37,728 bases of DNA, from contig CAYWRT010000002.1 of the NCBI GenBank assembly GCA_964460815.1, positions 1-37,728 on the forward strand. Reading direction: 5' to 3'. A program made the translations under genes and the position numbers. Positions 13,409-30,963 of this stretch are shown piece by piece; position 1 is the first letter of the stretch; every line of letters starts with the position of its first letter. The DNA comes from an uncultured Dehalococcoidaceae bacterium. Lineage in GTDB: Bacteria; Chloroflexota; Dehalococcoidia; Dehalococcoidales; RBG-16-60-22. The notes under the pieces are model-generated. The model worked only from the letters and a program-made list of their open reading frames with translations. It ran no database searches and had not been told where the DNA came from.

Positions 13409-14446
13409 TTATTGGTTAGATGCTCGGTTATACAGGCTTCTGATGACCTGCTCGGCTTCGGCGACAGTCCGCTCTATAAGTTCGCGGCAGGTAGGAATAT
13501 CCTCAATTAAACCGACTACCTGTCCGGCCGGAGCGAAGGCTTTGGTAATATCGCCAGTTTCGAGCGCCTTGCGGAACATTGCCTGTCCAATGGCAAATTG
13601 AGGGAGTGAACCACGCATTTGCCTGACGTATTTGGCATTCTCCATTATCTCTTTCCAGCTGGCATTAAACTCCCTTTTGGTGGCTAGTATGCTGGGTATA
13701 ACGTCCCAGGGGTGTGTCCACCAGCCACGGTAGCGCCGCATCTTGCTGATAGCTCTCATGGGCATGCCGTCCCAGACAGCACTGAGGAGAGCGTCGGTAT
13801 CTCTGGCTTCAATATATTTTGATTTCAGGTCTTCAGGCATCGGGCTTTCCTGTGTAATAGCGAACCTTGTGCCCATGGCAATGCCCTCGGCACCCAGGGC
13901 TAAAGCGGCCGCCAGACCTTTGCCGTCACAGAAGCCGCCAGCCACGACTACAGGAATCCTGACAGCCCTGGCTACTTCGGGAATCAAAACTGAAGACGCT
14001 ATCAGGCTGGAATGCCCCCCGGATTCCCAGCTCTGTACTATTACGGCATCGGCACCATGCCTCTCGACACTCAATGCCTGCCTGACGCTGCCCACCGCCG
14101 GTATGAAAAGTACATTATCAGGTTTCTTGATATTGAAAAAAGTGAGGGGATTCCTGAAGCCAGAAGTCCACACCGGCACCTCTTCCTCAATCAGCACCTG
14201 GATAAGTTCCCTGACTTTGGGCATAATAGGCATGATATTAACGCCAAAGGGCTTACCATTGGTACGCTCTTTTATCTCGCGGATTTGCTGCCGTACCTGC
14301 TCCGGGGTTAATCCCGGGGGGGCGAAAAGTCCCAGTCCTCCGGCGTTACCGGTGGCTATAACCAGAGGCGCACGAGCCACCGATGCCATCGGCGACAGGA
14401 TGATAGGGTGTTGAATTTTAAACAATTCGGTTATTCTTGTTTTCAT
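13409..14446 (-). CDS. Nitronate monooxygenase / FabK-like FMN oxidoreductase (NMO family)
   Basis: 345 aa. IQHPIILSPMASV...GNAGGLGLFA. ESGGH. VVAGGFCDGKGLAAALALGAEGIAMGTRF. Confidence 0.85.
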   Translation of the reverse strand: MKTRITELFKIQHPIILSPMASVARAPLVIATGNAGGLGLFAPPGLTPEQVRQQIREIKERTNGKPFGVNIMPIMPKVRELIQVLIEEEVPVWTSGFRNPLTFFNIKKPDNVLFIPAVGSVRQALSVERHGADAVIVQSWESGGHSSLIASSVLIPEVARAVRIPVVVAGGFCDGKGLAAALALGAEGIAMGTRFAITQESPMPEDLKSKYIEARDTDALLSAVWDGMPMRAISKMRRYRGWWTHPWDVIPSILATKREFNASWKEIMENAKYVRQMRGSLPQFAIGQAMFRKALETGDITKAFAPAGQVVGLIEDIPTCRELIERTVAEAEQVIRSLYNRASNQ

Positions 14447-14475
14447 AAAGACCCTTTTTAAAGCAATTATACTTC

Positions 14476-15933
14476 TTATTTTTTGCCGGCTGAGGCATAT
14501 CTGGCGGCATTTTCGCCGGCAATGCGCCCCGAGTTGATGGCAAAGCCGAACGTACTTCCCGAAAGATTGATATTATAGGTATCCGGTACCCAGCCCCCGG
14601 TATCATTGCCGCCGGAAAAAAGCCCGGGGATAGGGTTATCTTCTTTATCAATTACCTCCATGCGCTCGTTTATCTTGAGGCCGCCCACCGTGGTCAGCAT
14701 ACCGGGGGTGCTTCTCAGGGCATAATAGGGTGGAGTAAGCAGGGGCTTGAGGTATACGCGGTCTTTGCCGAAGATGGGGTCATAACCATGCTCACAAATT
14801 TCATTGTACTCTTCCACGGTAGCCTTTAACACCCTGGGGTCAGCTCCCATCCATCGGGCAATCTCATCCCAGGAATCGGCTATCTTTACCGTTCCTAACC
14901 CGGCTTCCATTTCCAGTTCTTTCAGCCATTGGCTCGATTTGACCTTGCGTGCCCGGTATAGTGAGCCCATACCACGGGTAAATCCGTGGTCGACCAGAAA
15001 CTGCTTTATTCCAGAGTCCAGAAGAACAAAGGCCAGCAGCTCCGGCTGCCGCATCTGGGCGTTTACGGCCTCGAAGGATTTTATGCCGGTGCCTTCGTCC
15101 GTGAACCGCTGCCCCTTCTTGTTTACCCAGACCGTGAGAGGCTCCATGGCCATGCCGGATAAGACGCGGGAGCTGGGAAAGCCCGGCCCGGTCAGGTGTA
15201 GTATCCCCAGTCCATCGGTATCAGCGCCTATTTCCGTGGCCATTACTATGCCGTCTCCCGTATGAGGTAACCCAATGAGGTATATATTATCTCCGTATAA
15301 TTGGCCGTATTTCTTTAATAATTCCTTGTTTCCGGCAAAGCCGCCGGTGGCGATAATAACACTTTTCGCCGTAACTCCAAGCTGTTTCCTTTTATATTCA
15401 GCCAGGACTCCGCTTGTATTTCCCTTCTCATCGAGCCGGATTTTCATGGCTCGGGCCGGAGAGACTAGCTGGACGCCGAGCGCTTTACAGCGCCTGACCA
15501 GCACGTTGATAATTGCCCGGCCCCCTGCCTTGGGGCAGTGCCAGGTAATCATGGTCTGCCCGGGATAGTAGGGGGGCAGGTCATAGATTATCAGACCCAT
15601 GTCCTCCAGCCATTTCACGGTATCCCCCGATTTGTTTAAAAAGGCGCGAATGATTCTGGGATTAATCTTGTTATGGGAGTAGCTCATGGCCTCTTTGAAA
15701 CATATGTCCGTACTTACCTGTATTCTCCTCTGCCTCTGGAGGTGACTGCCCGCCGCAAAAATACCTCCGGCCAGCGCCGAGTTGCCACCAAAAGAACGGC
15801 GCTTTTCCAGTACGGTAACCTTGGCTCCCATTTCGGCGGCGGCCGCGGCCGCCGCCAGACCCGCCCCGCCTCCACCAACGATGGCAACTTCGGTTTCCAG
15901 GTTTTCCGTATTCAAATTATTGCTGGGACTCAT
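14476..15933 (-). CDS. FAD-dependent oxidoreductase, FAD_binding_2 type (KstD/TcuA/soluble fumarate-reductase-like), copy 1
   Basis: 485 aa with no signal peptide. Dinucleotide fold VAIVGGGGAGLAAAAAAAEMGAKVTVLEKR. C-terminal IPGLFSGGNDTGGWVPDTYNINLSGSTFGFAINSGRIAGENAA. Clear paralog of 34374..35831. Confidence 0.8.
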   Translation of the reverse strand: MSPSNNLNTENLETEVAIVGGGGAGLAAAAAAAEMGAKVTVLEKRRSFGGNSALAGGIFAAGSHLQRQRRIQVSTDICFKEAMSYSHNKINPRIIRAFLNKSGDTVKWLEDMGLIIYDLPPYYPGQTMITWHCPKAGGRAIINVLVRRCKALGVQLVSPARAMKIRLDEKGNTSGVLAEYKRKQLGVTAKSVIIATGGFAGNKELLKKYGQLYGDNIYLIGLPHTGDGIVMATEIGADTDGLGILHLTGPGFPSSRVLSGMAMEPLTVWVNKKGQRFTDEGTGIKSFEAVNAQMRQPELLAFVLLDSGIKQFLVDHGFTRGMGSLYRARKVKSSQWLKELEMEAGLGTVKIADSWDEIARWMGADPRVLKATVEEYNEICEHGYDPIFGKDRVYLKPLLTPPYYALRSTPGMLTTVGGLKINERMEVIDKEDNPIPGLFSGGNDTGGWVPDTYNINLSGSTFGFAINSGRIAGENAARYASAGKK

Positions 15934-15948
15934 GATATCTAACCTCCC

Positions 15949-17352
15949 TCAGTTCACCTTCAGGGGAACCAACAGCTCGACTATTTTGTGTACGCTATCG
16001 AGTTCCTCCAGATTTTCCAGTAAATCCAGCGCTTTTTGGGCATTACCTCTGGTCACCGTCCGGGAAAACTCTACATTGGCTCTGAATTTATCTGCTATCT
16101 CGTCTCGGGACATCGGATTTCTGACCGGGTCTCCCTTGGGGGCATCGTTGAATTCGGAGAACTCCCGTCCGTCTTTCATTCTTACCTTCAGTTTTGCGCT
16201 TTGTGCTGGCGCTCCAGGCAGTTCAACTGACTTTATTTTTTGAATAAGGGCGTTAATTTGAGGGTCACGAATAGACTCCTCAGAGAAGTGCCCAGGCTTA
16301 ACACTCCCTCTAAGCAGGGCGCAGGCGGCGGCATACTGGTAGCTGAAAATGGCACAGGTATGGGGGAAGTCCCCGATTTTGAAGGGTTGTTCCAGAAAAC
16401 CGCCTACACCACCCGGGGGTATGTAAATGGTTACTTCGGCTATGTCCTCAGCCTTAATATCATGTTTTTGCAAAAGCGACAGGGCGCTATCAATAACCAC
16501 ATGAGTGCCGCGGCAACAGGGATATGGCTTGAAGACAGCATCGGCGTAATACTTCTTACCCAGGTCCCTGGTTAAAATCTCGGGTTTAATACAACCCTCG
16601 GTATAAAGATGATAGTAGCCGAAGTCACTGAGCAGGGCATCATCCGGTCCTGTCCATCCCGCTTTGGCAAGTTGGGCGGAAAAGATACCATTCCGGGCTG
16701 ATGTGCCCTGAGCCAGCTTGAATGAAGTAGTTCCATCCCAGATGCTCTGGGAAGTACCGGCGAGCTGATTGAGAACGATGCCAAAGGCGTTTCTCATTTG
16801 CCGTTGGTTTAGGGCTAATAATCGGCCAGCGATAGCGGTTGCGCCGAGCATATTTGTCGTACCGATGCAGTCCCAACCCAGGGCAGGTGCGAAGCCAGAA
16901 GCGGCCAGCACCCGTGAGGCGACATCATCCCCCACCAATAAAGCCGTGATTAGTTCTTTGCCATTTACGCCTTTCATTTCCCCCATTGATATCGCTGTCG
17001 GTACTGTTGTCCCGCTGGTGTGGGCCGGGATAATCTCATCTTCAACCAGGGGACATAGTGCTTCGAAGTCGTAAGACCGTGCTATGATACTGTTTACCAT
17101 GGCAGCGTTGTGAACTGGCACCTCACCGCCATGAACCAGGATGGTGGCTTCTTCCCTGCCTCCCCACTCTCTGACCAGGTTTATTAATGCCGGATTGCCG
17201 CCGGCGTTGGCACCGCCTATCAAACACCCCACCACATCGATGATTCGGCTCTTGGCGTTGTCTATTGTCGCCTGGTCGAAGTTTTCAAAGCGCGTCTCCC
17301 GCACATTTGCCGAAAGTGCTTCGATTGGTGAGTTTTTAGCTGTGCTGCTCAC
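15949..17352 (-). CDS. MmgE/PrpD-family protein, copy 2
   Basis: 467 aa. Same architecture as 9169..10581 but divergent in sequence (FDQATIDNAKSRIIDVVGCLIGG...; PYPCCRGTH versus PYPCCRMLH). Confidence 0.8.
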   Translation of the reverse strand: MSSTAKNSPIEALSANVRETRFENFDQATIDNAKSRIIDVVGCLIGGANAGGNPALINLVREWGGREEATILVHGGEVPVHNAAMVNSIIARSYDFEALCPLVEDEIIPAHTSGTTVPTAISMGEMKGVNGKELITALLVGDDVASRVLAASGFAPALGWDCIGTTNMLGATAIAGRLLALNQRQMRNAFGIVLNQLAGTSQSIWDGTTSFKLAQGTSARNGIFSAQLAKAGWTGPDDALLSDFGYYHLYTEGCIKPEILTRDLGKKYYADAVFKPYPCCRGTHVVIDSALSLLQKHDIKAEDIAEVTIYIPPGGVGGFLEQPFKIGDFPHTCAIFSYQYAAACALLRGSVKPGHFSEESIRDPQINALIQKIKSVELPGAPAQSAKLKVRMKDGREFSEFNDAPKGDPVRNPMSRDEIADKFRANVEFSRTVTRGNAQKALDLLENLEELDSVHKIVELLVPLKVN

Positions 17353-17395: not shown

Positions 17396-18616
17396 TCAGA
17401 TAATCACTTCGGCATTTACCAGCTCGACAAATTCTTCATCACTCATACCCAGGATTTCAGTGCATACGTAGTGATTATGCGCGCCAATGAGGGGGCCGGT
17501 CCTTATCCAGGGTGGTGTCTTTGACAGGACAAAAGGCCATCGCGTATGCAGGTAATCACCAATGACGGGGTGATGCATTTGGAGCAGTAGCTCTCTGGCT
17601 TTTACATGAGGGTCGGAGTCGACGACATCTTGAGCATTTTGCACAATCCCGGCCGGGACTCCGGCTGCCTGCATCATCTTCATCACTTCCCGGGGTATAT
17701 GCTGCGCCGTCCATTGGTTTATCTGCACTTCTAACTCGTCCTCATTTGCCTTCCGAGCCGACAGAGTGGCGAATTTGGGGGACTTTGTCCATTCAGGATT
17801 ACCCAGTACCCCGCAGAAACTTACCCATTCCTCATCGGTAAATACGGCAATAACGCACCACCGGTCATCCCCCTTACAGCGAAAGGCATTATGCGGCGCA
17901 GCGTGATTATCCCGGCTGCCCACCGGGGTTTGTATTTTGCCATTTATGGTAAAATCTAAAATGGCCGGACCCAGAAAATGCACCAGGGGCTCCAGCTGGC
18001 TGACATCGAGGTGTTGTCCCTTCCCTGTCCGGCGCTTATAGTCCAGAGCGGCAATACCGGCCATAGCGGCAAACATGGGCCCGATAACATCGGGGACGGC
18101 GGTAAAGCCGGGTGATGATGGACCGCTATCGGGAAATCGATAGTAGTAAAACTGGCCGCTCTGCGCCATGGAGTTGCTACCCCAGCCGCCCACCCCCACC
18201 ATCGGGCCTTCCTGCCCCATAATACTGACTTCTATGAGAATGATATCTTCTTTTACCTTTTTTAGCTCCTCGTAGCCAAATGACATGGCTTTCATCAGGC
18301 CTGGCCTCTGGTTCTGGAGTACTATGTCCGCCCAGCCGACCAGCTTCATAAATATCTCCCGGCCACGGGGCTCTCTCAGATTCAGCGTGAAGCTCTTTTT
18401 ACTGCTGTTAAAGGTATTAAACGTAATGGAACGGTCATAACCGGGGATGTCGTCCTTATACGGCGAGCTGGTCCTGGCCATCTCGGGATACCTGGTGGAC
18501 TCAATCTTGATTACCTCAGCGCCGAAGTCGGCAAAATAGGCTCCGGTCCAGGGGCCGTTAATAGCCTGTGTCCACTCCACGACCTTCACTCCTTGAAACG
18601 GCAGTCTTCTGTCCAT
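17396..18616 (-). CDS. Family-III (CaiB/BaiF) CoA-transferase, subunit retaining the catalytic Asp
   Basis: 406 aa. GVKVVEWTQAINGPWTGAYFADFGAEVIKIE. AVPD(176)VIGPMFAAMAGIAAL aligns with the GDSNSG nucleophile region of formyl-CoA transferase, as I recall that sequence. Confidence 0.85.
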   Translation of the reverse strand: MDRRLPFQGVKVVEWTQAINGPWTGAYFADFGAEVIKIESTRYPEMARTSSPYKDDIPGYDRSITFNTFNSSKKSFTLNLREPRGREIFMKLVGWADIVLQNQRPGLMKAMSFGYEELKKVKEDIILIEVSIMGQEGPMVGVGGWGSNSMAQSGQFYYYRFPDSGPSSPGFTAVPDVIGPMFAAMAGIAALDYKRRTGKGQHLDVSQLEPLVHFLGPAILDFTINGKIQTPVGSRDNHAAPHNAFRCKGDDRWCVIAVFTDEEWVSFCGVLGNPEWTKSPKFATLSARKANEDELEVQINQWTAQHIPREVMKMMQAAGVPAGIVQNAQDVVDSDPHVKARELLLQMHHPVIGDYLHTRWPFVLSKTPPWIRTGPLIGAHNHYVCTEILGMSDEEFVELVNAEVII

Positions 18617-18621
18617 ATAGA

Positions 18622-19851
18622 CTAGATAACCCCCTTTTTTTTCAAGTCAGCCAGGGTGCTTTGACTCAGACCCAGTTCACCTATATATATTTCCCGGTTG
18701 TGCTCGCCGATAAGCGGGGCTCTGTGCCGGGGCTCTGTTTTCGTTTCGTTAGATAGAAACAGGTGCCCGGCATAAGGTATAACATCCGATAGCTCGGGGT
18801 GTTCGATTGCTTTCCAGTATTTTCTGAACTCAAGCTGCTTATTTTCGTACAGGTCTCTCACGTCGTTCACCGCACTGATGCGCAGTCCCCTCTTTAAAGA
18901 CTCGTCTTCTATCTCTTTTTTAGTATGCCGTTGCAGGAGCTTAAAAACCGGCCCCTCTATCCGGTCAATTTTTTCCTGAGTTATGCCATCGAAACCGAAC
19001 TCATCCCAGTCGATGTCTTTCAGGTCTCCAAGCAGGCCTTCTTCCTCCAACCATTTAGCTAACTGCTTATTTTCGCTGGCACCGATGGTCCCGCCGAAAA
19101 GAGTCCAGGTCACGTGCCCGTCTTTGCAGGGCCATATCGTTCTGGTATTCACATTATAACGAAACATGATGTCGCCGTGCCGGCCCGCGTTGTAGTGCCT
19201 GAATTCCCAGGATGTTGGCACTTCACTGTAATTTTCCCGGATGGCACACTCGGATAGTGAAACGTCAATATGCTGTCCCTCTCCCGACCGGGTGCGGTAG
19301 TAATAGGCAATCATGGTAGCCAGGGCGGCATTGGTGCCCGCCAGGCAATAGGCATGGTTTGGGCTCAGCCGGCAGGGCACGCCACCGGGTTCGCCGGTCA
19401 GCGACATGATGCCACCCACAGCCATAGCTATGAGGTCCGTAGCTTTATAATTTTTATAGGGTCCGGTCTGGCCAAAAGGGGTTATTGAGGTCATTATGAG
19501 CCCGGGATAAATGGCACTTAGTTCCTGGTAGCCTAAGCCCAGATTGTCCAGATAACCCACCGGAAAAGACTCGAGCAGGAAATCGGCGTTTTTAACCAAT
19601 TTTTTAAAAATATCCTGGCCTTCCCGGGTCTCTATATTCAGGGTTATGCCCCTTTTACTTTCATTGAAAGCGAACCAGTAGAGGCTTTTCTCCGGGTCGG
19701 GCACATCATGATAGAATGGCCCGAAATTTCTGGCCGGGTCTCCCCCGGGCCTTTCGATTTTGATTACGTCAACGCCGAACTGAGCCAGGAGTTTGCCACA
19801 GAAGAAACCAAGCTCATTGGTCACATCCAGAGCACGAAGACCACTCAGCAT
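18622..19851 (-). CDS. Family-III (CaiB/BaiF) CoA-transferase paralog lacking the catalytic Asp
   Basis: 409 aa. LRALDVTNELGFFCGKLLAQFGVDVIKIERPGGDP. In an ungapped eye alignment the nucleophile position holds Tyr168 (NHAYCLAGTNAALATMIA). Its stop is only 5 nt upstream of the start of the downstream transferase gene. Confidence 0.85.
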   Translation of the reverse strand: MLSGLRALDVTNELGFFCGKLLAQFGVDVIKIERPGGDPARNFGPFYHDVPDPEKSLYWFAFNESKRGITLNIETREGQDIFKKLVKNADFLLESFPVGYLDNLGLGYQELSAIYPGLIMTSITPFGQTGPYKNYKATDLIAMAVGGIMSLTGEPGGVPCRLSPNHAYCLAGTNAALATMIAYYYRTRSGEGQHIDVSLSECAIRENYSEVPTSWEFRHYNAGRHGDIMFRYNVNTRTIWPCKDGHVTWTLFGGTIGASENKQLAKWLEEEGLLGDLKDIDWDEFGFDGITQEKIDRIEGPVFKLLQRHTKKEIEDESLKRGLRISAVNDVRDLYENKQLEFRKYWKAIEHPELSDVIPYAGHLFLSNETKTEPRHRAPLIGEHNREIYIGELGLSQSTLADLKKKGVI

Positions 19852-19903: not shown

Positions 19904-21835
19904 CTACCCTGCCTTATTGATGAAGCTGGTAAGTTCCAGTTCCGTAAGTGTCCTTTTCGTAGGGATGCCGTTTTTATCCCACCCTCTCTCCTTGTAGTAA
20001 TCATCGAGTAGCATCTCAATATCTTCTTTAGCCAATCTCCTGGTATTATAGTAGTCTTTCAGCCAGGTCTCCTCGCCCAAGAGGGAAAATGGCTCGGTGT
20101 AGTATCGTTCCGGTAAGTAATCATCCTGCCTGGTGGCACCCTGCCTGATGTTGAATAGCTTGAGCAGGTTGACACATCGTTCGGAGGCTGATAGCAATTC
20201 GGCTGGTTGAATATGAACGCCGGTGACCAGGTGATAGAGCTCCGTAATCGTGGCCAGGCTGTATAACCGGGCCAGAGGTGGTCGGCTGCAAATACCCATA
20301 ACATCAAGCAGGACGTTCCAGCGTTCCACATACCGTGTCAGCCGGGCGATATTAAACCCCAGCGGGTCGCTGAAAACCCGGTCAAGCTCGTCTTCTGACA
20401 TACCTATCCTGGTGCAGTATCTTCGCAGCTGCTCCGGTGTACGCCCCGCAATCACCGTGGGACCGAGGGCCAGGGTGGCGTGCGGTCCCGTGAGCCCAAC
20501 TACAGTGCCAAAACCTTCCGTCCCGAAAAGGCCACGGGGGTCGAAATCCAGTGAGCCGCCTCGCCTCTGCACAGCATACTTCGTCAGTTCTTCGCCGAGG
20601 GCGGCAAACACGCCGGGGTAACCGTCGGCTACAGCGTTGCCAAAGCCTTCCCGGTTAGCTACCTTGTGCATCCAGGTTAGTACCGTGTCCAGGTTCCGCT
20701 CCAGTTTCATGCCGTCGGTTACCTTTTCATCAATTATCCCTTGTTCTTGCAGGTCCATAAGGAAATCTAACACACAGGTAATCTCATTGGAATCTATGCC
20801 GAGCCTGTTGGCGGTGTCGTGACACTTGACAATTTGATTGTAACTTAAGAGGTCAAACTTGGAACCATAGGAGAGAATAGCGCCCATATTACATGCCTGC
20901 GGGGTTTCCAGGCCGGCGAACTCACCGTCCTTCAGCTTGTACACGACCTTGCAGCTCAGCGGGCAGAGTGTACAGGGAAGAGCGATATCTCTTACTTTCA
21001 TGAACGCTTCCACGCCGAACCGATTGACCCATCTATCGGCGGGGTAGGATTCGCGCCAGTTTTTCCAGGCGGCTTTGCCTTCCTGACCGTACTGCTCTAC
21101 GGCTATCGTGGTGCCCAGGTTCATCCATTGTTTGAGGTTCGGGTCATGCAGGAACCTGTCATATAGTTCATCAGTTTTGGCCAGGAGTTCTCTGGTATGG
21201 GCTACGCGCAACCCTTTGGTGCCCCTGACTACAATAGCTTTAATATTCTTGGAACCGGGGACCGCCCCGGAGCCTTTTCTACCCGCGGATGCCTGCTTAT
21301 TGGTATAAGCCATGGATATCTTGGCTAATTTTTCACCAGCCGGGCCAATGCCGAATATAGTGCAGTTGTCGCCATATCGGTCCCAGAGTTCGTCAGCAGC
21401 CTCATAGGTGTCCTTGCCCCAGAGGTCGCCGGCGTCGTTAATCTGTACCTCATCATCGAAAATAGTGATATATACCGGCTTGGCGGCTTTTCCGGTTATG
21501 ACCATAGAATCATAGCCCGCCCATTTCAGATGCGTCCCGAAATCACCGGATGTCGCTGTCTGGGCCAGTCCGTTGAGTGGTGACTTTGATGTCCAGTCGG
21601 TCTTGTTGGTCCCGATGAGACCTGTCCCGGAGAGAGGGGTCGAGCTGGCTATCAGGGCATTTCCCGGTGACAGCGCATCCGTATCCGGCTTTACGGCGTC
21701 ATAGAGTAACTTGGCGCTCATGCTTATGCCGCCAATAAACTTCCTGGCCATTCCAAGGTCAAAATTCTCCTTGACAATGCTTCCTTGAGTTAAATCGATT
21801 TTCAGAATCTGACCGGCGTATCCCAGCATTTCCAT
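19904..21835 (-). CDS. AOR-family tungsto/molybdopterin enzyme, non-canonical (AOR-3)
   Basis: The track ORF starts at the GTG at 21868 (654 aa). I prefer the ATG at 21835 (MEMLGYAGQILKIDLTQGS), which has GAGGGGG 8 nt upstream and a typical AOR N-terminus. FeS motif CTLCPLSC. GSGAVPGSKNIKAIVVRG. C-terminus YYKERGWDKNGIPTKRTLTELEL. Where AOR-1 and AOR-2 have PEYE(T/S), this protein has TPQAC(326)NMG. Confidence 0.85.
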   Translation of the reverse strand: MEMLGYAGQILKIDLTQGSIVKENFDLGMARKFIGGISMSAKLLYDAVKPDTDALSPGNALIASSTPLSGTGLIGTNKTDWTSKSPLNGLAQTATSGDFGTHLKWAGYDSMVITGKAAKPVYITIFDDEVQINDAGDLWGKDTYEAADELWDRYGDNCTIFGIGPAGEKLAKISMAYTNKQASAGRKGSGAVPGSKNIKAIVVRGTKGLRVAHTRELLAKTDELYDRFLHDPNLKQWMNLGTTIAVEQYGQEGKAAWKNWRESYPADRWVNRFGVEAFMKVRDIALPCTLCPLSCKVVYKLKDGEFAGLETPQACNMGAILSYGSKFDLLSYNQIVKCHDTANRLGIDSNEITCVLDFLMDLQEQGIIDEKVTDGMKLERNLDTVLTWMHKVANREGFGNAVADGYPGVFAALGEELTKYAVQRRGGSLDFDPRGLFGTEGFGTVVGLTGPHATLALGPTVIAGRTPEQLRRYCTRIGMSEDELDRVFSDPLGFNIARLTRYVERWNVLLDVMGICSRPPLARLYSLATITELYHLVTGVHIQPAELLSASERCVNLLKLFNIRQGATRQDDYLPERYYTEPFSLLGEETWLKDYYNTRRLAKEDIEMLLDDYYKERGWDKNGIPTKRTLTELELTSFINKAG

Positions 21836-21886
21836 TTCAGGTACCCCCTCGACGTTCTGATAAGCCACATGAATATCTTATCGTTA

Positions 21887-23548
21887 CTATAGCTCCTTAT
21901 CTGCCCGGGTTAAGGCACCGTAGTTGCATACGGCTATACAGAGACCGCAATTCTTGCATTCATCGCTGAACTGTAAATCGGTCGTTCTTATAGCGTGGTC
22001 TCTGGTCAGTGTAATACACGACTTAAAGGGGTTGAACTCCCCCAGATTTATGGCAGAACAGCGTACCTGACATGTCCGGCACCCGGAACATTTATCAACC
22101 TCAATCCTGATGGGCAGGTCACACCGCAGGCACCGCCTGGCTTCTTCAACGGCACTCGGCTCATCAAGGTTAAGTTCTACCTCGCTGAAGTCACGGAGTC
22201 GCTCGCTGACAGGTCGTGCGGGTATGTTAACCCGGTTGACGATGGGAAGCCCCAGCCTGTATGAGGCCACTTTCTGGGGCGTCGCCAGTACCTCTTCAAT
22301 CGACCCCTGGCCACCAAGGTAGCGGTCTATTGAGGCGGCGGCCTGTCTCCCGGCAGCGATAGCCTCGATAATTGAAGCCGGGCCGCTGACGACATCGCCG
22401 CCGGCAAAAACCCCGTCTCTGCCGGTCGCCAGGGTGCCCGCGGTGACCTGAACCGTACCACCGTCACCGGTCGTCAGCCCGAGCTGGTCAGGGATATCAG
22501 GCGTTTGACCGGTAGCCGAAATGACACTGTCAACCTCAACAGTGAACTCGCTGCCGGGGACCGGTTCCGGGCGTCTCCGCCCGCTGGCATCCACTGCCCC
22601 CAGTCTGGACCGGATAAATTCTACCTTCAACTTGCCGTTGGCTCTGGCTATCCTGGTGGGCGCCGTCAGGAACTGAATATTCACTCCCTCGGCCATAGCC
22701 TCGGCCACCTCGGACAGGTTGGCCGGCATCTCGTCCCAGGAGCGGCGGTAATAAATCGTCACATTCCTGCCACCGAGCCGAAGGGCGGTCCGGGCGGTAT
22801 CGATGGCGGCATTGCCCCCACCGACAACCGCCACCTTGTCCCCCGGACTGACCTGCCGGCCCATGTTAACATCTTTAAGGAAGGATACGCAGTCCACTAC
22901 CGCCGGGTCATCTTCTCCCTCGATACCCATCTTCTGCCCCCTGTGGGCACCAATAGCTATGAAAACAGCGTCGTAGCCCTGCTCAAAGAGCCAGTCCGGT
23001 GATTCAACCCTGGTGTTCGTTTTAATGTTCACCCCTGCCTTTCTGACAATATCTATCTCCGAATCGAGCACGTTCCTGGGCAGCCGGTACCTGGGAATAC
23101 AGGTCAGCATCATGCCACCCGGCTCCGGGAGCGCCTCGAAGACGGTGACAGCGTGCCCAAGCCTGGCCAGGTAATAGGCTGCGGTTAGTCCGGCCGGCCC
23201 GGAACCGACGACAGCCACCGACTTGCCCGTTGCTCGGGCAGCTGCCGGCTCTCTGGTGCTGATTGACCTCCCTTCAGCCACAAAGCGTTTGAGAGCTTTT
23301 ATGGCCAGCGGCCCGCCCATCTCGCTTCGCTGGCAGCTGGCCTCGCAGGGGTGGAAGCAGACATAGCCACAGATTAAGGCAAAGGGAATCCTCTCCCTGA
23401 TTACTGCCAGAGCTTCGTCGAACTTGCCTTCAGCAATCAGACGAATGTAGCGGGGTACATCCACGCCCGCGGGACAAGCACGCTGACACGGTGCTTCTTC
23501 TAGCGGCTCTTTGTAGGTAATCACAGTAAAACCCCCTTCTGGTTTCAT
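21887..23548 (-). CDS. GltD/SudA-like NAD(P)H-dependent FAD/FeS oxidoreductase fused to a C-terminal 2x[4Fe-4S] ferredoxin domain
   Basis: 553 aa. N-terminal Cys clusters CQRACPAGVDVPRY...CGYVCFHPCEASC. FAD fold VAVVGSGPAGLTAAYYLARLGH. NAD(P)H fold VAVVGGGNAAIDTARTAL. C-terminal CSGCRTCQVRC and CKNCGLCIAVC. Confidence 0.85.
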   Translation of the reverse strand: MKPEGGFTVITYKEPLEEAPCQRACPAGVDVPRYIRLIAEGKFDEALAVIRERIPFALICGYVCFHPCEASCQRSEMGGPLAIKALKRFVAEGRSISTREPAAARATGKSVAVVGSGPAGLTAAYYLARLGHAVTVFEALPEPGGMMLTCIPRYRLPRNVLDSEIDIVRKAGVNIKTNTRVESPDWLFEQGYDAVFIAIGAHRGQKMGIEGEDDPAVVDCVSFLKDVNMGRQVSPGDKVAVVGGGNAAIDTARTALRLGGRNVTIYYRRSWDEMPANLSEVAEAMAEGVNIQFLTAPTRIARANGKLKVEFIRSRLGAVDASGRRRPEPVPGSEFTVEVDSVISATGQTPDIPDQLGLTTGDGGTVQVTAGTLATGRDGVFAGGDVVSGPASIIEAIAAGRQAAASIDRYLGGQGSIEEVLATPQKVASYRLGLPIVNRVNIPARPVSERLRDFSEVELNLDEPSAVEEARRCLRCDLPIRIEVDKCSGCRTCQVRCSAINLGEFNPFKSCITLTRDHAIRTTDLQFSDECKNCGLCIAVCNYGALTRADKEL

Positions 23549-23688: not shown

Positions 23689-24729
23689 CTACAGCTCAAA
23701 AACATACTCGCAATAAGGTTGACCCGCGCTCCTTAGACTGGGTACCGAGAATTTTAGTTCAGGGTTAATTATCTCACAAGCCTTGTGCTCGTGCCCCATA
23801 GAACCCAGGCAGATTTCGGCCGTTAGTTCCTCCTGAGGACTGGCCGATAGCGGGCAAAATCCACTATTTCTCATGACCACCCGGTTAGGGGTATCCTCAA
23901 TTATTTCGAGGTCATTCTCGAAAACTATTTGGTGGAAAATTTTATAGTAGCCGCCGGCTGTCCGGGCATCGTTACCCGGGATGTTGTAGTTCTGCAATGA
24001 CATGATTACATAGTTATCGGCGGCTTCGCTGGTTACCTTGTAGACCGCCTCCATGCCCTCCTTGCCGTACCTTCGGTAAAGGGCCTTTGACATTGAACCA
24101 TAATTTTCCCAGCCCCTTCGCTGACGGGCTTTTTCCCGTCTCTCTTTTGGCCACACTTCCTCATCCAGTTTGTATAGAGATACCGGTACGGATACCTCAG
24201 AAAGAGGCGCTGTCTCGGGTAGCTCAAACATCATGGTGCAAGATTCGTCTCCAGCACTCATCAGTGATATATTGGTAAATTGTATATTAGGGTTAATTAT
24301 TTCGCAGGCTACGAGCTCGTGTCCCTGACCACCTTCGCACATCTCCGCGCAGAGTTCCACCTGAGGGAAGCGCGCCAGAGGACAACCACTGGAACCTCTC
24401 AGTATCACTCTCCTCGGCGTGTCCTCAACAATCTCAAAATCAGTGTCAAAAACTATCTTGTCAACGAGCTTGAAATAGGCGGCCACCGTTCTACAGTCAT
24501 TGCCCACGATATGGAAGTTTTTCAATGCCCGGGGTACGTATTTTCTGGCCATCTCCATCATCTGGTCGTTATTGCACTGCGTACCTTCAAAGCCGTACTT
24601 TTTGTATATCTCCTTGGCTAGTTTTGCGTAGTATTCTTCCGCCATGTGTGTTGAAGCATCCCGACGGCGCTTTTCCGTCCACTTCTTTTCGTCATAGCTG
24701 ACCTCTGATACTGGTATTGAATCCGCCAT
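23689..24729 (-). CDS. Internally duplicated Cys/His-motif protein; each half resembles the L-2-amino-thiazoline-4-carboxylate-hydrolase-like (ATC_hydrolase) domain (family assignment tentative)
   Basis: 346 aa. Residues 1-170 and 171-346 align along their whole length. Both halves keep C-P-L-x11-(C/T)-x3-C-x5-H-x4-CEIINP-x16-G-x3-C-x3-FEL. Confidence 0.6.
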   Translation of the reverse strand: MADSIPVSEVSYDEKKWTEKRRRDASTHMAEEYYAKLAKEIYKKYGFEGTQCNNDQMMEMARKYVPRALKNFHIVGNDCRTVAAYFKLVDKIVFDTDFEIVEDTPRRVILRGSSGCPLARFPQVELCAEMCEGGQGHELVACEIINPNIQFTNISLMSAGDESCTMMFELPETAPLSEVSVPVSLYKLDEEVWPKERREKARQRRGWENYGSMSKALYRRYGKEGMEAVYKVTSEAADNYVIMSLQNYNIPGNDARTAGGYYKIFHQIVFENDLEIIEDTPNRVVMRNSGFCPLSASPQEELTAEICLGSMGHEHKACEIINPELKFSVPSLRSAGQPYCEYVFEL

Positions 24730-24782: not shown

Positions 24783-25934
24783 TCATTTATAGGGGAGAGC
24801 CTCTTTCCCCAAAATTTCCCTGACAATGTTCAGCTTGTTTATTTCAGCGGTGCCATCAGTAAACTCATAGCCGATGACATCTCGCAGCCGCTGCTCTAAA
24901 GGTAAGTCCTCGGTGTAGCCAACGTGCCCGTACAGGAGTATGCAATCATGAATTATTCGTGCGGCTAGCTGCGGACACCACCATTTGCACATAGCCCCTT
25001 CTTTGAAAGTTGACATATCCTGGTCTCCACGCCACAGAGTATAGTAGCAGAGCCATCTGGCGGCCTCGAGATACGTGGCGGCCTCGGCAATCTTGAAGGA
25101 TACGCCCTCATATTTGGCAATCGGCTTGCCAAAAACTACCCTCTCCTTTGAGTAAGTGATAATTTCATCCAGAGAGGCCTGGGCCGATGCCAGCACCGCC
25201 AGTCCGGTCAGGGCGCGGCCTTTGTCAACGCCGGCTATAAAGGCTCTGGCAAATGCCTGCCCTTCTTCCCCGATACGATTCTTGGCGGGAACCATGACGC
25301 CATCGAAGTTAATAAGGGCTCTACCCACGGGTTTGCAGCCCATGTCAATAATCGGCGACATTTCAATACCCGGAAGGTCCATGGGGATAAGGAACTGGGT
25401 CAGGCCTCTGATTCCGGCGTCGGGGTCAGTTTTGGCCAGCAGAAGGCAGGCATCACCGTAGGCGCCCCGGCTGACCGAGGTCTTTTCCCCATTAATCCTG
25501 TAATAATCTCCCTCCCTGATGGCCCTTGTTTTCGTAGCTGCGACATCGGAGCCGCAATCCGGCTCACTTATGGCGGCGCTGCAAATTTTTTCGGTGCTGA
25601 CAAAGCCGGGAACCCACTCAGCCGCCACCTCTTCTTCTCCCTGCGCCGCCATCCAGGCCATGTTCTGGACATGATGTGTCAGTCCTCCCAGATTGACATC
25701 TGCATAGCTCATCTCCTCAATAACAACGCCGCGGCTTATCCAGGTTGCCTCCTGTCCGCCATACTTTTCCGGTACTCCCATTCCCGTATAACCCATATCG
25801 GCTATCTTCTTCCAGATTTCGCGGGGTACCGTGGTCTCCTTGGCCCGTTTCATCGCTCCTGGCGCTAGCTCTTTTCTGGCAAAGGATCGCACCTGATTCC
25901 GTAACATCTTGTCGGCTTCACTGAAATCAAACAT
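24783..25934 (-). CDS. Acyl-CoA dehydrogenase family flavoprotein (Asp at the usual catalytic-Glu position)
   Basis: 383 aa. Typical ACAD N-terminus (FDFSEADKMLRNQVRSFARKELAP) and SEPDCGSD. The C-terminal RDVIGYEFTD(360)GTAEINKLNIVREIL aligns ungapped to MCAD [24 protein letters not shown], as I recall that sequence. Confidence 0.88.
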   Translation of the reverse strand: MFDFSEADKMLRNQVRSFARKELAPGAMKRAKETTVPREIWKKIADMGYTGMGVPEKYGGQEATWISRGVVIEEMSYADVNLGGLTHHVQNMAWMAAQGEEEVAAEWVPGFVSTEKICSAAISEPDCGSDVAATKTRAIREGDYYRINGEKTSVSRGAYGDACLLLAKTDPDAGIRGLTQFLIPMDLPGIEMSPIIDMGCKPVGRALINFDGVMVPAKNRIGEEGQAFARAFIAGVDKGRALTGLAVLASAQASLDEIITYSKERVVFGKPIAKYEGVSFKIAEAATYLEAARWLCYYTLWRGDQDMSTFKEGAMCKWWCPQLAARIIHDCILLYGHVGYTEDLPLEQRLRDVIGYEFTDGTAEINKLNIVREILGKEALPYK

Positions 25935-26193: not shown

Positions 26194-26973
26194 TTAAGCA
26201 GTGTCCGTGCCGGCCAGCCAGGATGGTGTCCTCTTTTCCAGGAATGCTCTTATGGCCTCCTGTCCCGCCTCGCTGGCAGCATGGCGGGCGAAAAGCTCCT
26301 CAATATGTGGCAGTGCCTCCCCCGGGGTCATGTCCCGTGTCTGCCAGAAAGCCATCTTCGTGAGCTTGAGAGCCACCGGGCTCTTGCCTGCCAGCTTCTT
26401 GGCCCACTCTATAGCCGTCTCTTCCAGCTTTTCGGCTGGAACCACCTCGTCAACATAGCCCCAGTCAAGTGCCTGCTGGGCACTGATATAATCACCCGTT
26501 AATACCATCCTCTTGTTTCTTTTAAAGCCAGCGCAGACCGCGCCGGAGCGGATGCTGCCTCATATCAGCCCGATGTTTATCGCCGGCAGCGCAAACTTGG
26601 TACGGTCACTGATTATAATGATGTCAGCCGATTCATGCGCCCCGGGGCCGTCGGCCACCGCGATTACCGGCTTGGTGATGTCTCGCTGCATGAATGCCTG
26701 GTACCCCATAAACTTGTGGCTCACCTCCAGAATTTCCTCGAAAGTTTTTCCTGCTATATCCGCCTGGGGCATCCCGGAGCTAAAAACGGGACCCCTATGG
26801 GTTAGAATGATGACCCGTACTTCATCGTCTTTCTCAAATTCGAGAAAAGCGTCGGTGGCTTCATCTATCATCTCCATGGTCATCGGGTTCCTCTTCTCAG
26901 GTCTATTGTAGATAATCCTGCCTATGGGACGCTTCTTCTCAACCAGTATTGTCCTGTACTCCTTCATATCCAC
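26194..26973 (-). pseudogene. Enoyl-CoA hydratase/isomerase (crotonase) family gene interrupted by one in-frame TGA (26562-26560)
   Basis: Track ORFs 26560..26973 (N-terminal half, ...FALPAINIGLI*) and 26194..26508 (C-terminal half, MVLTGDYISAQQAL...) are in the same frame (465 nt apart). Read-through gives GLI-TGA-GSIRSGAVCAGFKRNKRMVLTG. The oxyanion-loop region (AVADGPGAHESADIIIIS) also looks about 6 residues shorter than the canonical crotonase consensus. Confidence 0.55.
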
Positions 26974-28789: not shown

Positions 28790-28795
28790 TGTTTC

Positions 28796-30826: not shown

Positions 30827-30963
30827 CAGTGCACCTTTTGGCCGGCTCAAGGTCCCTTCGGCCTTCTTTTTATCTTTTCGCCCCCTGGCTATATTTACAA
30901 TCGGGTAGCCAGTTAAAGAGCTGGTATTTATACGGGATTCTTATTCATGGTTACTCGACTCAT

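What the first reader, a model, noticed from the sequence alone, without database searches (positions are those of the whole stretch)
19904..21868. AOR-3 replaces the conserved catalytic-Glu motif with a Cys-containing motif
The three paralogs in this window can be compared directly downstream of their CxxCxxxC FeS motifs. AOR-1 reads ..AHKPEYETMAMFGSNC and AOR-2 reads ..YGGPEYESIAALGSDC. AOR-3 reads ..GLETPQAC(326)NMGAILSYGSKF, with the Cys codon at 20893-20891.

In Pyrococcus furiosus AOR the Glu of the EYE motif (Glu313) sits next to the tungsten and is considered catalytic. A Cys at or next to this position could become a protein ligand to the metal. BamB has a Cys ligand to tungsten, but I cannot verify from memory that the positions are equivalent.

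AOR-3 is also about 30-40 residues longer than its paralogs. It is the only one paired with an NAD(P)H/FAD/FeS partner.
Basis: partly seen in the sequence, partly recalled or inferred. Interest (0 to 1): 0.65.

Follow-up and report, generated by a model that had tools for sequence, protein, structure and literature searches.

The report
Cysteine-motif tungsten enzyme clade, CoA-ester operon
One of three tungsten-type aldehyde oxidoreductase genes in this window has lost both catalytic glutamates and carries a conserved Gln-x-Cys-Asn motif instead, which marks an unstudied enzyme clade that sits in CoA-ester breakdown operons and probably does something other than oxidise aldehydes.

Summary
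AOR-3 (19904-21868, minus strand; likely true start ATG 21835) has CxxCxxxC at residues 299-306. Cys326 (TGT, 20893-20891) sits in GLETPQACNMGAILSYGS, where paralogs AOR-1 and AOR-2 have PEYE. No conserved acidic residue remains in that loop. Among 48 orthologs (50-90% identity) the counts are Gln324 47/48, Cys326 47/48 and Asn327 48/48.

The protein keeps all four FeS cysteines and both pterin motifs, and it models as a confident AOR fold (pLDDT 95).

It is not a BamB. Bootstrapped NJ puts it in a large "EYE-less" superclade (100%), with 0% support for grouping with BamB. The BamB proton-relay/Zn residues are absent, and there are no Bam partner genes.

Whether Cys326 occupies the position of BamB's tungsten ligand Cys322 is unresolved. 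phmmer and hhalign place Cys on Cys, at low confidence. MAFFT and hmmalign place it 1-3 residues away. The tools gave no coordinates for a superposition.

Orthologs always have a small 2x[4Fe-4S] ferredoxin gene upstream. In this window that ferredoxin is fused to a GltD-like NAD(P)H flavoprotein. Neighbours are an acyl-CoA dehydrogenase and paired family III CoA-transferases.

My best reading is a non-aldehyde W/Mo enzyme that acts on a CoA ester. It is a new variant of a known kind.

The parts
19904..21835 (-). AOR-3 gene. AOR/WOR-family large subunit, about 643 aa from the probable ATG start. The maximal ORF extends to GTG at 21868.
   Evidence: Pfam AFOR_N 3e-63 and AFOR_C 1e-65. AF2 model pLDDT 95.2. 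Foldseek TM 0.82-0.87 to all solved AOR-family structures. Start inferred from the SD site and orthologs.
21844..21850 (-). Shine-Dalgarno GAGGGGG, 8 nt upstream of ATG 21835-21833.
   Evidence: Read directly from the sequence.
20882..20899 (-). Loop motif Q324-A-C326-N-M-G329 that replaces the E-Y-E of canonical AORs. The Cys326 codon TGT is at 20891-20893.
   Evidence: Q 47/48, C 47/48, N 48/48, G 47/48 in the clade.
20951..20974 (-). C299-x-x-C302-x-x-x-C306, three ligands of the [4Fe-4S] cluster.
   Evidence: All three are 48/48 conserved.
20288..20290 (-). Cys527, the fourth [4Fe-4S] ligand, within D-V-M-G-I-C (the second DxxGL(C/D) pterin motif).
   Evidence: 48/48.
21887..23548 (-). Partner protein, 553 aa. 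N-terminal GltD/NfnB-like FeS + FAD + NAD(P)H module (Fer4_20, Pyr_redox_2) fused to a C-terminal 2x[4Fe-4S] ferredoxin domain (residues about 480-553, roughly 21890-22111).
   Evidence: Pfam and NCBIfam. The C-terminus aligns with the stand-alone 88-122 aa ferredoxins encoded upstream of AOR-3 orthologs.
24783..25934 (-). Acyl-CoA dehydrogenase, conserved next to AOR-3 orthologs.
   Evidence: Pfam. Best NCBIfam match is cyclohexanecarboxyl-CoA dehydrogenase, 336 bits, below the 575-bit cutoff. Conserved in L001, L003, L086 and L088.
23689..24729 (-). 346-aa protein with no assignable family, between the ACAD and the partner gene.
   Evidence: No Pfam or NCBIfam family. 77% identical copy at the same position in L088.
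17396..19851 (-). Two adjacent family III CoA-transferase genes (18622-19851 and 17396-18616), immediately downstream of AOR-3.
   Evidence: Pfam CoA_transf_3 at 8e-77 and 4e-95. The same pair follows AOR-3 orthologs in L086, L088 and L003.
13409..17352 (-). Downstream same-strand genes: MmgE/PrpD-family (15949-17352), FAD_binding_2 flavoprotein (14476-15933) and an NMO/FabK-like enoyl reductase (13409-14446).
   Evidence: Pfam and NCBIfam. The flavoprotein is also found after the CoA-transferases in L086. Intergenic gaps are 5-53 nt.

Best explanation
AOR-3 is the large subunit of an uncharacterised clade of the tungsten/molybdenum bis-pyranopterin AOR/WOR family. It binds the usual [4Fe-4S] cluster and pterin cofactor. 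It has lost both active-site glutamates (PfAOR Glu311 and Glu313) and Tyr427, so it is probably not an aldehyde oxidoreductase.

In their place it carries an almost invariant Gln-x-Cys-Asn motif at the N-terminus of the helix that lines the metal site. I infer that the Cys thiol lies in the first or second coordination shell of the metal. Direct ligation, as with Cys322 of BamB, is the favoured but unproven reading.

I infer that electrons pass between the metal site and NAD(P)H along this route: the enzyme's own [4Fe-4S], then a clade-specific 2x[4Fe-4S] ferredoxin module, then the FeS clusters and FAD of the GltD/NfnB-like domain to which that ferredoxin is fused in this window. In most orthologs the ferredoxin stands alone.

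The conserved neighbours are a cyclohexanecarboxyl-CoA-dehydrogenase-like ACAD, a pair of family III CoA-transferases, and enoyl-CoA hydratases. They suggest the substrate is a CoA thioester of an imported alicyclic, aromatic or dicarboxylic acid that is reduced or oxidised at the metal centre.

Shown: the motif and its conservation, the cofactor-binding residues, the fold, the clade placement, the ferredoxin fusion and the gene context. Inferred: metal ligation, the direction of electron flow and the substrate class.
For: - Motif and coordinates.
- Conservation 47-48/48.
- All four FeS Cys, both DxxGL(C/D)-type motifs, and the Thr243 and His448 equivalents are kept, while Y427 becomes F.
- AF2 pLDDT 95.2, with the Cys between strand 308-311 and helix 314-323 (model numbering).
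- AOR fold.
- phmmer and hhalign place the Cys on BamB Cys322.
- phmmer against 9g7j places QAC on EYE.
- Literature: Cys322 ligates W in BamB, and E311/Y312/E313 line the W site.
- The stand-alone ferredoxin is homologous to the partner's C-terminus.
- Conserved ACAD, ferredoxin, AOR and paired CoA-transferase context in five independent loci.
- NCBIfam hints for the ACAD and the flavoprotein.
Against: - The residue-level equivalence of Cys326 is ambiguous. MAFFT and hmmalign shift it 1-3 positions, and the hhalign posterior in this loop is low.
- No coordinates were available, so no Cys-to-metal distance could be measured.
- From the Cys to the downstream LG(I/L)D anchor is 31 residues, against 28 in both PfAOR (from E313) and BamB (from C322); these are my counts on the sequences.
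- In the wider superclade this column is variable (S 22, C 18, T 11 of 111), and the preceding Ser is the more conserved residue. The Cys is therefore clade-specific, not a superclade requirement.
- NAD(P)H (about -320 mV) could not drive a BamB-like dearomatisation.
- No experimental data exist for any clade member.
Confidence: 0.5

Rival explanations
1. The Cys is not a metal ligand but a second-shell catalytic residue. It could act as a proton donor, or as a nucleophile that forms a thiohemiacetal or thioester intermediate. It would then take over the acid-base role of Glu313 in a modified aldehyde/acid or thioester redox reaction.
For: hmmalign to a canonical AOR HMM puts the Cys at the Pro310 position and N-M-G on E-Y-E. 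MAFFT puts it on Glu311. The Thr243 and His448 equivalents, which are second-shell residues of the aldehyde-oxidising enzymes, are retained. The CoA-transferase and ACAD context would also fit a thioester-forming reaction.
Against: Both glutamates and Tyr427 are gone. The only structurally characterised loop Cys in this family is a metal ligand. No precedent exists for covalent catalysis in AOR enzymes; this last point is from my own knowledge.
Confidence: 0.25
2. AOR-3 is a genuine class II benzoyl-CoA reductase catalytic subunit (a BamB orthologue) that dearomatises benzoyl-CoA.
For: Its length is similar to BamB (about 643 vs 653 aa). Pairwise and profile alignments put Cys on Cys322. The genomic context is CoA-ester metabolism.
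Against: - Bootstrap NJ gives 0/100 for AOR-3 clade + BamB, and 100/100 for AOR-3 inside a different superclade.
- phmmer scores are higher against ordinary AORs (240 bits) than against BamB (178 bits).
- BamB E251/H255/E257/H260 correspond to A/Y/Q/A here.
- The window has no BamC-like three-cluster subunit and no BamDEFGHI genes.
- An NAD(P)H-linked partner cannot reach about -620 mV.
Confidence: 0.04
3. AOR-3 is an ordinary aldehyde:ferredoxin/NAD(P) oxidoreductase, and the apparent loss of the Glu is an alignment artefact.
For: Best overall sequence and fold matches are aldehyde-oxidising AORs. The Class III WOR architecture (L+S+N) is known for AorABC.
Against: No alignment method finds a conserved Glu or Asp anywhere in residues 319-336. 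The only acidic residue, E321, varies. Tyr427 is replaced by Phe, Ile, Val or Met. The whole superclade lacks EYE.
Confidence: 0.08
4. AOR-3 is a degenerate, non-catalytic paralog.
For: It has lost canonical catalytic residues.
Against: All cofactor-binding residues are invariant. The replacement motif is itself under strong conservation across 50-90% identity orthologs. Gene order is conserved with a dedicated ferredoxin.
Confidence: 0.03

Closest known systems
BamB, the tungsten subunit of class II benzoyl-CoA reductase (Geobacter metallireducens, PDB 4Z3W)
   Same: AOR-family fold, [4Fe-4S] plus bis-pterin sites, and similar length. The EYE glutamates are absent. A Cys lies in the loop after the CxxCxxxC hairpin, and two alignment methods superpose it on Cys322. 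The gene context is CoA-thioester catabolism, with an adjacent small poly-ferredoxin partner.
   Different: It falls in a different clade (0/100 bootstrap). It lacks E251/H255/E257/H260. Its ferredoxin partner has 2 clusters rather than 3. There are no BamDEFGHI bifurcation modules. Here the partner is an NAD(P)H flavoprotein. The Thr243 and His448 equivalents that BamB lacks are retained.
AorABC of Aromatoleum aromaticum (Class III WOR, PDB 8C0Z)
   Same: An AOR-family subunit is wired through FeS clusters to an FAD/NAD-binding component.
   Different: AorB has the full T243/E313/Y427/H448 set and oxidises aldehydes. AorA is a separate four-cluster subunit. In the window the ferredoxin has two clusters and is fused to a GltD/NfnB-like protein that carries its own N-terminal FeS domain.
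Canonical aldehyde:ferredoxin oxidoreductases (P. furiosus AOR 1AOR, C. autoethanogenum AFOR 9G7J), and AOR-1 and AOR-2 of this window
   Same: Best overall sequence and fold similarity (27-28% identity, TM 0.85-0.87). The FeS and pterin motifs are identical in type.
   Different: E311, E313 and Y427 are replaced (Q or N; C or G; F). The protein is about 25-35 residues longer. It has a dedicated ferredoxin partner and a CoA-ester operon context.
YdhV (E. coli Mo-bis-MPT protein, Class V WOR)
   Same: It is reported to have a conserved Cys like BamB, and it is an AOR-family member with no aldehyde activity known.
   Different: It is the most distant of the references (NJ distance 2.09). The NCBIfam YdhV model scores 224 bits against a cutoff of 868. 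None of the membrane-associated YdhWXUT/YdhY partners are present.

Membership tests
AOR/WOR family (tungsten/molybdenum bis-pyranopterin oxidoreductases) | AFOR_N plus AFOR_C domains and the three-domain AOR fold | tested here: met
   Pfam 3e-63 and 1e-65. AF2 pLDDT 95.2. Foldseek TM 0.82-0.87 to 1aor, 9g7j, 1b25, 4z3w, 8c0z and 6x1o.
AOR/WOR family (tungsten/molybdenum bis-pyranopterin oxidoreductases) | Four Cys ligands of the [4Fe-4S] cluster (CxxCxxxC plus a distal Cys in DxxGLC) | tested here: met
   C299, C302, C306 and C527 are each 48/48 in the clade.
AOR/WOR family (tungsten/molybdenum bis-pyranopterin oxidoreductases) | Two DxxGL(C/D)-type pterin-binding motifs | tested here: met
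   N-R-L-G-I-D (AOR-1 likewise has N-R-Y-G-L-D) and D-V-M-G-I-C align with the canonical motifs.
AOR/WOR family (tungsten/molybdenum bis-pyranopterin oxidoreductases) | Actual binding of W (or Mo) bis-pterin | not testable with these tools
   Requires metal analysis of the purified protein.
Aldehyde-oxidising AORs (AOR sensu stricto, FOR and similar) | Second-shell residues Thr243, Glu313, Tyr427 and His448 (PfAOR numbering; PMC12096430, PMC13328260) | tested here: not met
   The Thr (45/48) and His (48/48) are kept. Glu313 and Glu311 are absent under every alignment. Tyr427 becomes Phe 40/48.
BamB / class II benzoyl-CoA reductase | Cys322 as a protein ligand to W | tested here: inconclusive
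   phmmer and hhalign put Cys326 on Cys322, but with low posterior. MAFFT is off by one column. No structural superposition was possible.
BamB / class II benzoyl-CoA reductase | Invariant Zn-site/proton-relay residues Glu251, His255, Glu257 and His260 | tested here: not met
   They align to A, Y, Q and A in AOR-3.
BamB / class II benzoyl-CoA reductase | Phylogenetic placement within the BamB clade | tested here: not met
   NJ with 100 bootstraps: BamB 100, AOR-3 clade 100, EYE-less superclade including AOR-3 100, AOR-3 + BamB 0.
BamB / class II benzoyl-CoA reductase | Association with BamC (3x[4Fe-4S]) and the BamDEFGHI bifurcation modules | tested here: not met
   No such genes in the window or in five ortholog loci. 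The partner is a 2-cluster ferredoxin, with or without a GltD-like domain.
YdhV clade (Class V WOR) | Match to the YdhV equivalog model, and ydhYWXUT-type partners | tested here: not met
   NF007354 scores 223.7 bits against a cutoff of 868, on the N-terminal domain only. It has the largest NJ distance of the references. No such partners are present.
Class III WOR (WorL + WorS + WorN, AorABC type) | Separate WorS with four [4Fe-4S] clusters, plus an FAD/NAD-binding WorN | tested here: inconclusive
   An FAD/NAD(P) module (Pyr_redox_2) is present. The FeS module has 8 Cys, enough for 2 clusters, and is fused to it. Most orthologs lack the flavoprotein altogether.

The most novel reading that the evidence does not exclude
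The Gln-x-Cys-Asn clade is a second kind of cysteine-ligated tungsten (or molybdenum) AOR-family enzyme, evolved independently of BamB. It would catalyse a ferredoxin- or NAD(P)H-linked reduction or oxidation of a cyclic or unsaturated acyl-CoA without any electron-bifurcating machinery. That would be a new reaction class for tungsten enzymes. The surrounding EYE-less superclade, with Ser/Thr/Cys at this site, would then mirror the Ser/Cys/Sec/Asp ligand diversity of the DMSO reductase family.
Probability: 0.17. Interest if true: 0.85.

Novelty: new variant of a known kind. Interest (0 to 1): 0.55.

Why it matters
BamB is so far the only AOR-family enzyme with non-aldehyde chemistry. [quoted passage not shown]

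This window points to a compact, well-conserved clade with three properties:
- It has discarded the aldehyde-oxidation residues.
- It has a conserved Cys at the metal-site loop.
- It is embedded in CoA-ester catabolic operons with its own ferredoxin, here hard-wired to NAD(P)H.

The clade is a tractable candidate for a new tungsten or molybdenum reaction. The analysis also shows that loop cysteines are scattered through a large neglected superclade. Among the 150 best-scoring 50%-identity clusters, 111 belong to that superclade, and it is found in Dehalococcoidia, Bathyarchaeia, Asgard archaea and Thermodesulfobacteriota. The published generalisation therefore rests on limited sampling.

Tried and rejected
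- **Structure superposition.** The alignment-based AF2 model is excellent. Foldseek returns only summary scores and coordinates are not exposed, so the Cys-to-W distance could not be measured. My first structure prediction was single-sequence and wasted; I did not use its result.
- **Loop alignment.** Five sequence methods disagree on the loop register. hhalign against canonical AORs simply gaps the loop out.
- **Genome scan.** It returned only relatives of 40% identity or less, with no named organism carrying an ortholog.
- **Other look-ups.** The listing of cluster members gave no taxon names for the clade. An exact look-up of a window protein found nothing. The Weinert 2015 BamB paper is not held.
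- **Literature.** Searches for any description of this clade, or of Cys in other AOR clades, found none.
- **Selenocysteine.** I considered Sec at the in-frame TGA of the neighbouring hydratase and rejected it.
Full report
**Observation.** The ORF at 19904-21868 (minus strand) translates to 654 aa from a GTG. It contains CTLCPLSC at residues 299-306, followed by GLETPQAC(326)NMGAILSYGSKF, and Cys326 is encoded by TGT at 20893-20891. All three carry Pfam AFOR_N and AFOR_C. The probable true start of AOR-3 is ATG 21835-21833 (Met12). A GAGGGGG Shine-Dalgarno lies 8 nt upstream, and orthologs begin MxMFGYAGQ at that point. The protein is therefore about 643 aa, 25-29 residues longer than its paralogs rather than 30-40. 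AF2 model numbering starts at Met14, so Cys326 is Cys313 there.

**Is the motif more than chance?** A search of 5.8 billion proteins returned 49 relatives at 50-90% identity, then a sharp drop to 43% or less. Among 48 full-length clade members the loop is highly conserved: Gln324 47/48, Ala/Ser325, Cys326 47/48, Asn327 48/48, Gly329 47/48. The single exception is P0047, which reads QANNEGA. The only acidic residue nearby, Glu321, is variable (E36, T8, others). In an exhaustive search of 1.84 billion 50%-identity representatives, the whole clade collapses into one representative (P0049, 1008 bits) and the next scores 637 bits. The clade is compact and distinct.

**Cofactor sites and fold.** The four [4Fe-4S] cysteines (299, 302, 306, 527) are 48/48 conserved. 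Both DxxGL(C/D)-type pterin motifs are present, as N-R-L-G-I-D and D-V-M-G-I-C. An alignment-based AlphaFold2 model has mean pLDDT 95.2 and pTM 0.94. It matches every solved AOR-family structure about equally, with TM 0.82-0.87 to 9g7j, 9mqx, 1aor, 1b25, 4z3w, 8c0z and 6x1o. Reviews name four second-shell residues as conserved in aldehyde-oxidising members: Thr243, Glu313, Tyr427 and His448. The Thr (45/48) and His (48/48) equivalents are kept. Tyr427 is Phe in 40/48. Glu313 and the neighbouring Glu311 are gone.

**Where does Cys326 sit relative to Glu313 and BamB Cys322?** The 2025 review (PMC12096430) states that BamB Cys322 ligates tungsten. [quoted passage not shown] It also says that Glu311, Tyr312 and Glu313 all line the W site in AORs. 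From the PDB alignments I transcribed PfAOR 2-439 and BamB 6-420 and checked that their lengths matched the reported ranges. My count on those sequences shows that PfAOR Glu313 and BamB Cys322 are both 28 residues upstream of the Gly of the downstream [LY]-G-L-D motif, so they are plausibly equivalent. For AOR-3 the spacing from the Cys is 31, and the methods disagree:
- phmmer against AOR 9g7j puts Q-A-C on E-Y-E.
- phmmer and profile-profile hhalign against BamB put Cys326 on Cys322, with low posterior.
- MAFFT, in three different sequence sets, puts it one column earlier, on Glu311 / BamB Lys321.
- hmmalign to a canonical AOR HMM gives an ungapped solution with Cys on Pro310 and N-M-G on E-Y-E.
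- hhalign against canonical AORs gaps the loop out.

In the AF2 model the Cys lies between a β-strand (308-311) and the first residue of a helix (314-323), so it is the residue just before that helix. I conclude that Cys326 lies within the stretch equivalent to PfAOR 310-313. It is very likely close to the metal site. Direct ligation could not be tested because no tool exposes model coordinates or residue-level structural alignments.

**Clade placement.** I ran neighbour-joining on 212 sequences. The set comprised the AOR-3 search hits, ten further BamB-clade members plus G. metallireducens BamB, E. coli YdhV (taken from NC_000913.3), PfAOR, the window paralogs, and 79 AOR genes from GTDB genomes. 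The tree puts the AOR-3 clade inside a large superclade that lacks the EYE motif entirely. On a 57-sequence subset with 100 bootstraps the support values were:

| Grouping | Bootstrap support |
|---|---|
| AOR-3 clade | 100 |
| EYE-less superclade including AOR-3 | 100 |
| BamB | 100 |
| AOR-3 clade + BamB | 0 |
| Superclade + BamB/YdhV group | 1 |

These are. phmmer also scores AOR-3 higher against ordinary AORs (240 bits) than against BamB (178 bits). BamB's Zn-site/proton-relay residues Glu251, His255, Glu257 and His260 align to Ala, Tyr, Gln and Ala. AOR-3 is therefore not a BamB, and it is not close to AorB or YdhV either.

**The loop Cys is not unique to this clade.** Among 111 superclade representatives at 50% clustering, the residue before the Cys column is Ser in 58, and the Cys column itself is Ser 22, Cys 18, Thr 11. 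One of the 18 is the AOR-3 clade's own representative, P0049. Outside the superclade, P0105-7/L024 read G-T-E-F-C, which is an unambiguous Glu313-to-Cys change. P0101/2/11 read T-T-C-E-P-W and sit near BamB/YdhV. The published statement that a Cys is confined to BamB and YdhV therefore reflects limited sampling.

**Partner and context.** The upstream gene (21887-23548) has a GltD/NfnB-type N-terminal FeS domain (Fer4_20), an FAD/NAD(P)H module (Pyr_redox_2, 5e-41), and a C-terminal 8-Cys di-cluster ferredoxin domain. In orthologous loci L001, L003, L004 and L086 the gene immediately upstream of the AOR is an 88-122 aa ferredoxin. That ferredoxin aligns residue for residue with the C-terminus of the window's partner, sharing KC[TS]GCRTCQVRCS...GEFNP[FLM]KS...C..CG.C...C.YGAL. 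The closest ortholog locus, L088 (90% identity), has the same fusion. The conserved unit is therefore ferredoxin plus AOR-3, and the NAD(P)H flavoprotein is an add-on in this lineage. A GltD-like gene also precedes a distant superclade member in L009.

Five loci share further neighbours. One is an acyl-CoA dehydrogenase whose best, sub-threshold NCBIfam match is cyclohexanecarboxyl-CoA dehydrogenase. Another is a pair of family III CoA-transferases. Loci variously add enoyl-CoA hydratases, a thiolase with its DUF35-type partner, 3-hydroxyacyl-CoA dehydrogenase, HGD-D pairs, a glycyl-radical enzyme with its activase, PrpD-family proteins, a FAD_binding_2 flavoprotein and TRAP transporters. In the window the genes from 25934 down to 13409 are on one strand. 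Their gaps are 5-53 nt, apart from a 140-nt gap upstream of the partner gene. Best hits of AOR-1 (77%) and AOR-2 (60-62%) to Dehalococcoidia MAG contigs suggest a Dehalococcoidia-like source.

**Interpretation.** AOR-3 is a cofactor-competent AOR-family enzyme that has swapped the aldehyde-oxidation residues for a conserved Gln-x-Cys-Asn motif at the metal-site helix. It works with a dedicated two-cluster ferredoxin, here fused to an NAD(P)H flavoprotein, inside CoA-ester catabolic operons. The most likely function is redox chemistry on a CoA thioester rather than on an aldehyde, with the Cys in the first or second shell of the metal. I put overall confidence at 0.5 and ligation itself at roughly 0.4-0.5. 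The rivals are:
- a second-shell catalytic Cys (0.25);
- an ordinary AOR (0.08);
- a true BamB (0.04);
- a dead paralog (0.03).

A BamB-like dearomatisation driven by NAD(P)H alone is thermodynamically implausible. If the chemistry resembles BamB's, the substrate must be easier to reduce, or the reaction must run oxidatively, or ferredoxin must be the real donor as the stand-alone ferredoxin orthologs suggest.

**Novelty and verdict.** I found no paper describing this clade or its motif. The 2026 WOR classification lists only five of 92 clades as having a member with a defined physiological role, and it names BamB as the only non-aldehyde activity. I classify AOR-3 as a new variant of a known kind.

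Noticed in passing
window 26194-26973 (-): An enoyl-CoA hydratase reading frame is interrupted by a single in-frame TGA at 26562-26560 (INIGLI*GSIRSG). Related hydratases in loci L001, L003 and L004 have S/G/A/T, not Cys, at that column. The downstream RNA has no unusual fold (z = -0.16). A pseudogene or sequencing error is more likely than selenocysteine.
   Followed up: partly
window 23689-24729 (-): A 346-aa protein with no Pfam or NCBIfam family (only a sub-threshold ATC_hydrolase hit). It is conserved at 77% identity in the same position, between the ACAD and the GltD-ferredoxin gene, in locus L088. It may belong to the AOR-3 module.
   Followed up: partly
superclade representatives P0255-P0403 and P0050-P0100: In 32 of 111 EYE-less superclade representatives the third Cys of the CxxCxxxC [4Fe-4S] motif is Asp (29) or Glu (3), giving CxxCxxxD-K. 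None of these has the loop Cys. This suggests an Asp-ligated cluster variant that co-varies with the active-site loop.
   Followed up: partly
P0105-P0107 and L024:814-2676; P0101, P0102, P0111: Other uncharacterised AOR clades carry a loop Cys. One reads G-T-E-F-C, an unambiguous Glu313-to-Cys change with Glu311 kept. Another reads T-T-C-E-P-W and groups loosely near BamB/YdhV.
   Followed up: partly
L090:7732-14158: A superclade member with a loop Cys (P0063, motif MACPL) sits in a ferredoxin-AOR-bioB-bioF-bioD-bioA gene string. This hints at a role in biotin precursor metabolism for that subclade.
   Followed up: no
L003:9134-21470; L001:2441-4926; L004:12021-14590: AOR-3 ortholog loci also contain a glycyl-radical enzyme with its activase followed by two PrpD-family genes (L003). 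L001 and L004 contain pairs of HGD-D (2-hydroxyacyl-CoA dehydratase / class I BCR-like) genes. This is radical, low-potential CoA-ester chemistry around the same AOR.
   Followed up: no
window 1-37728: The window is a dense anaerobic catabolic island. It holds three AOR paralogs, two PrpD-family genes, two FAD_binding_2 flavoproteins, hydantoinase A/B (27065-30850), two DctP genes plus DctQM, and an OYE/2,4-dienoyl-CoA-reductase-like gene that runs off the end (35849-37711). GC is 52%. AOR-1 is 77% identical to a gene on an uncultured Dehalococcoidaceae contig (L081).
   Followed up: partly
L009:1-3460: A GltD-like gene lies directly upstream of a distant superclade AOR (about 33% identity to AOR-3) in a Deltaproteobacteria MAG. 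NAD(P)H-linked partners therefore recur elsewhere in the superclade.
   Followed up: no
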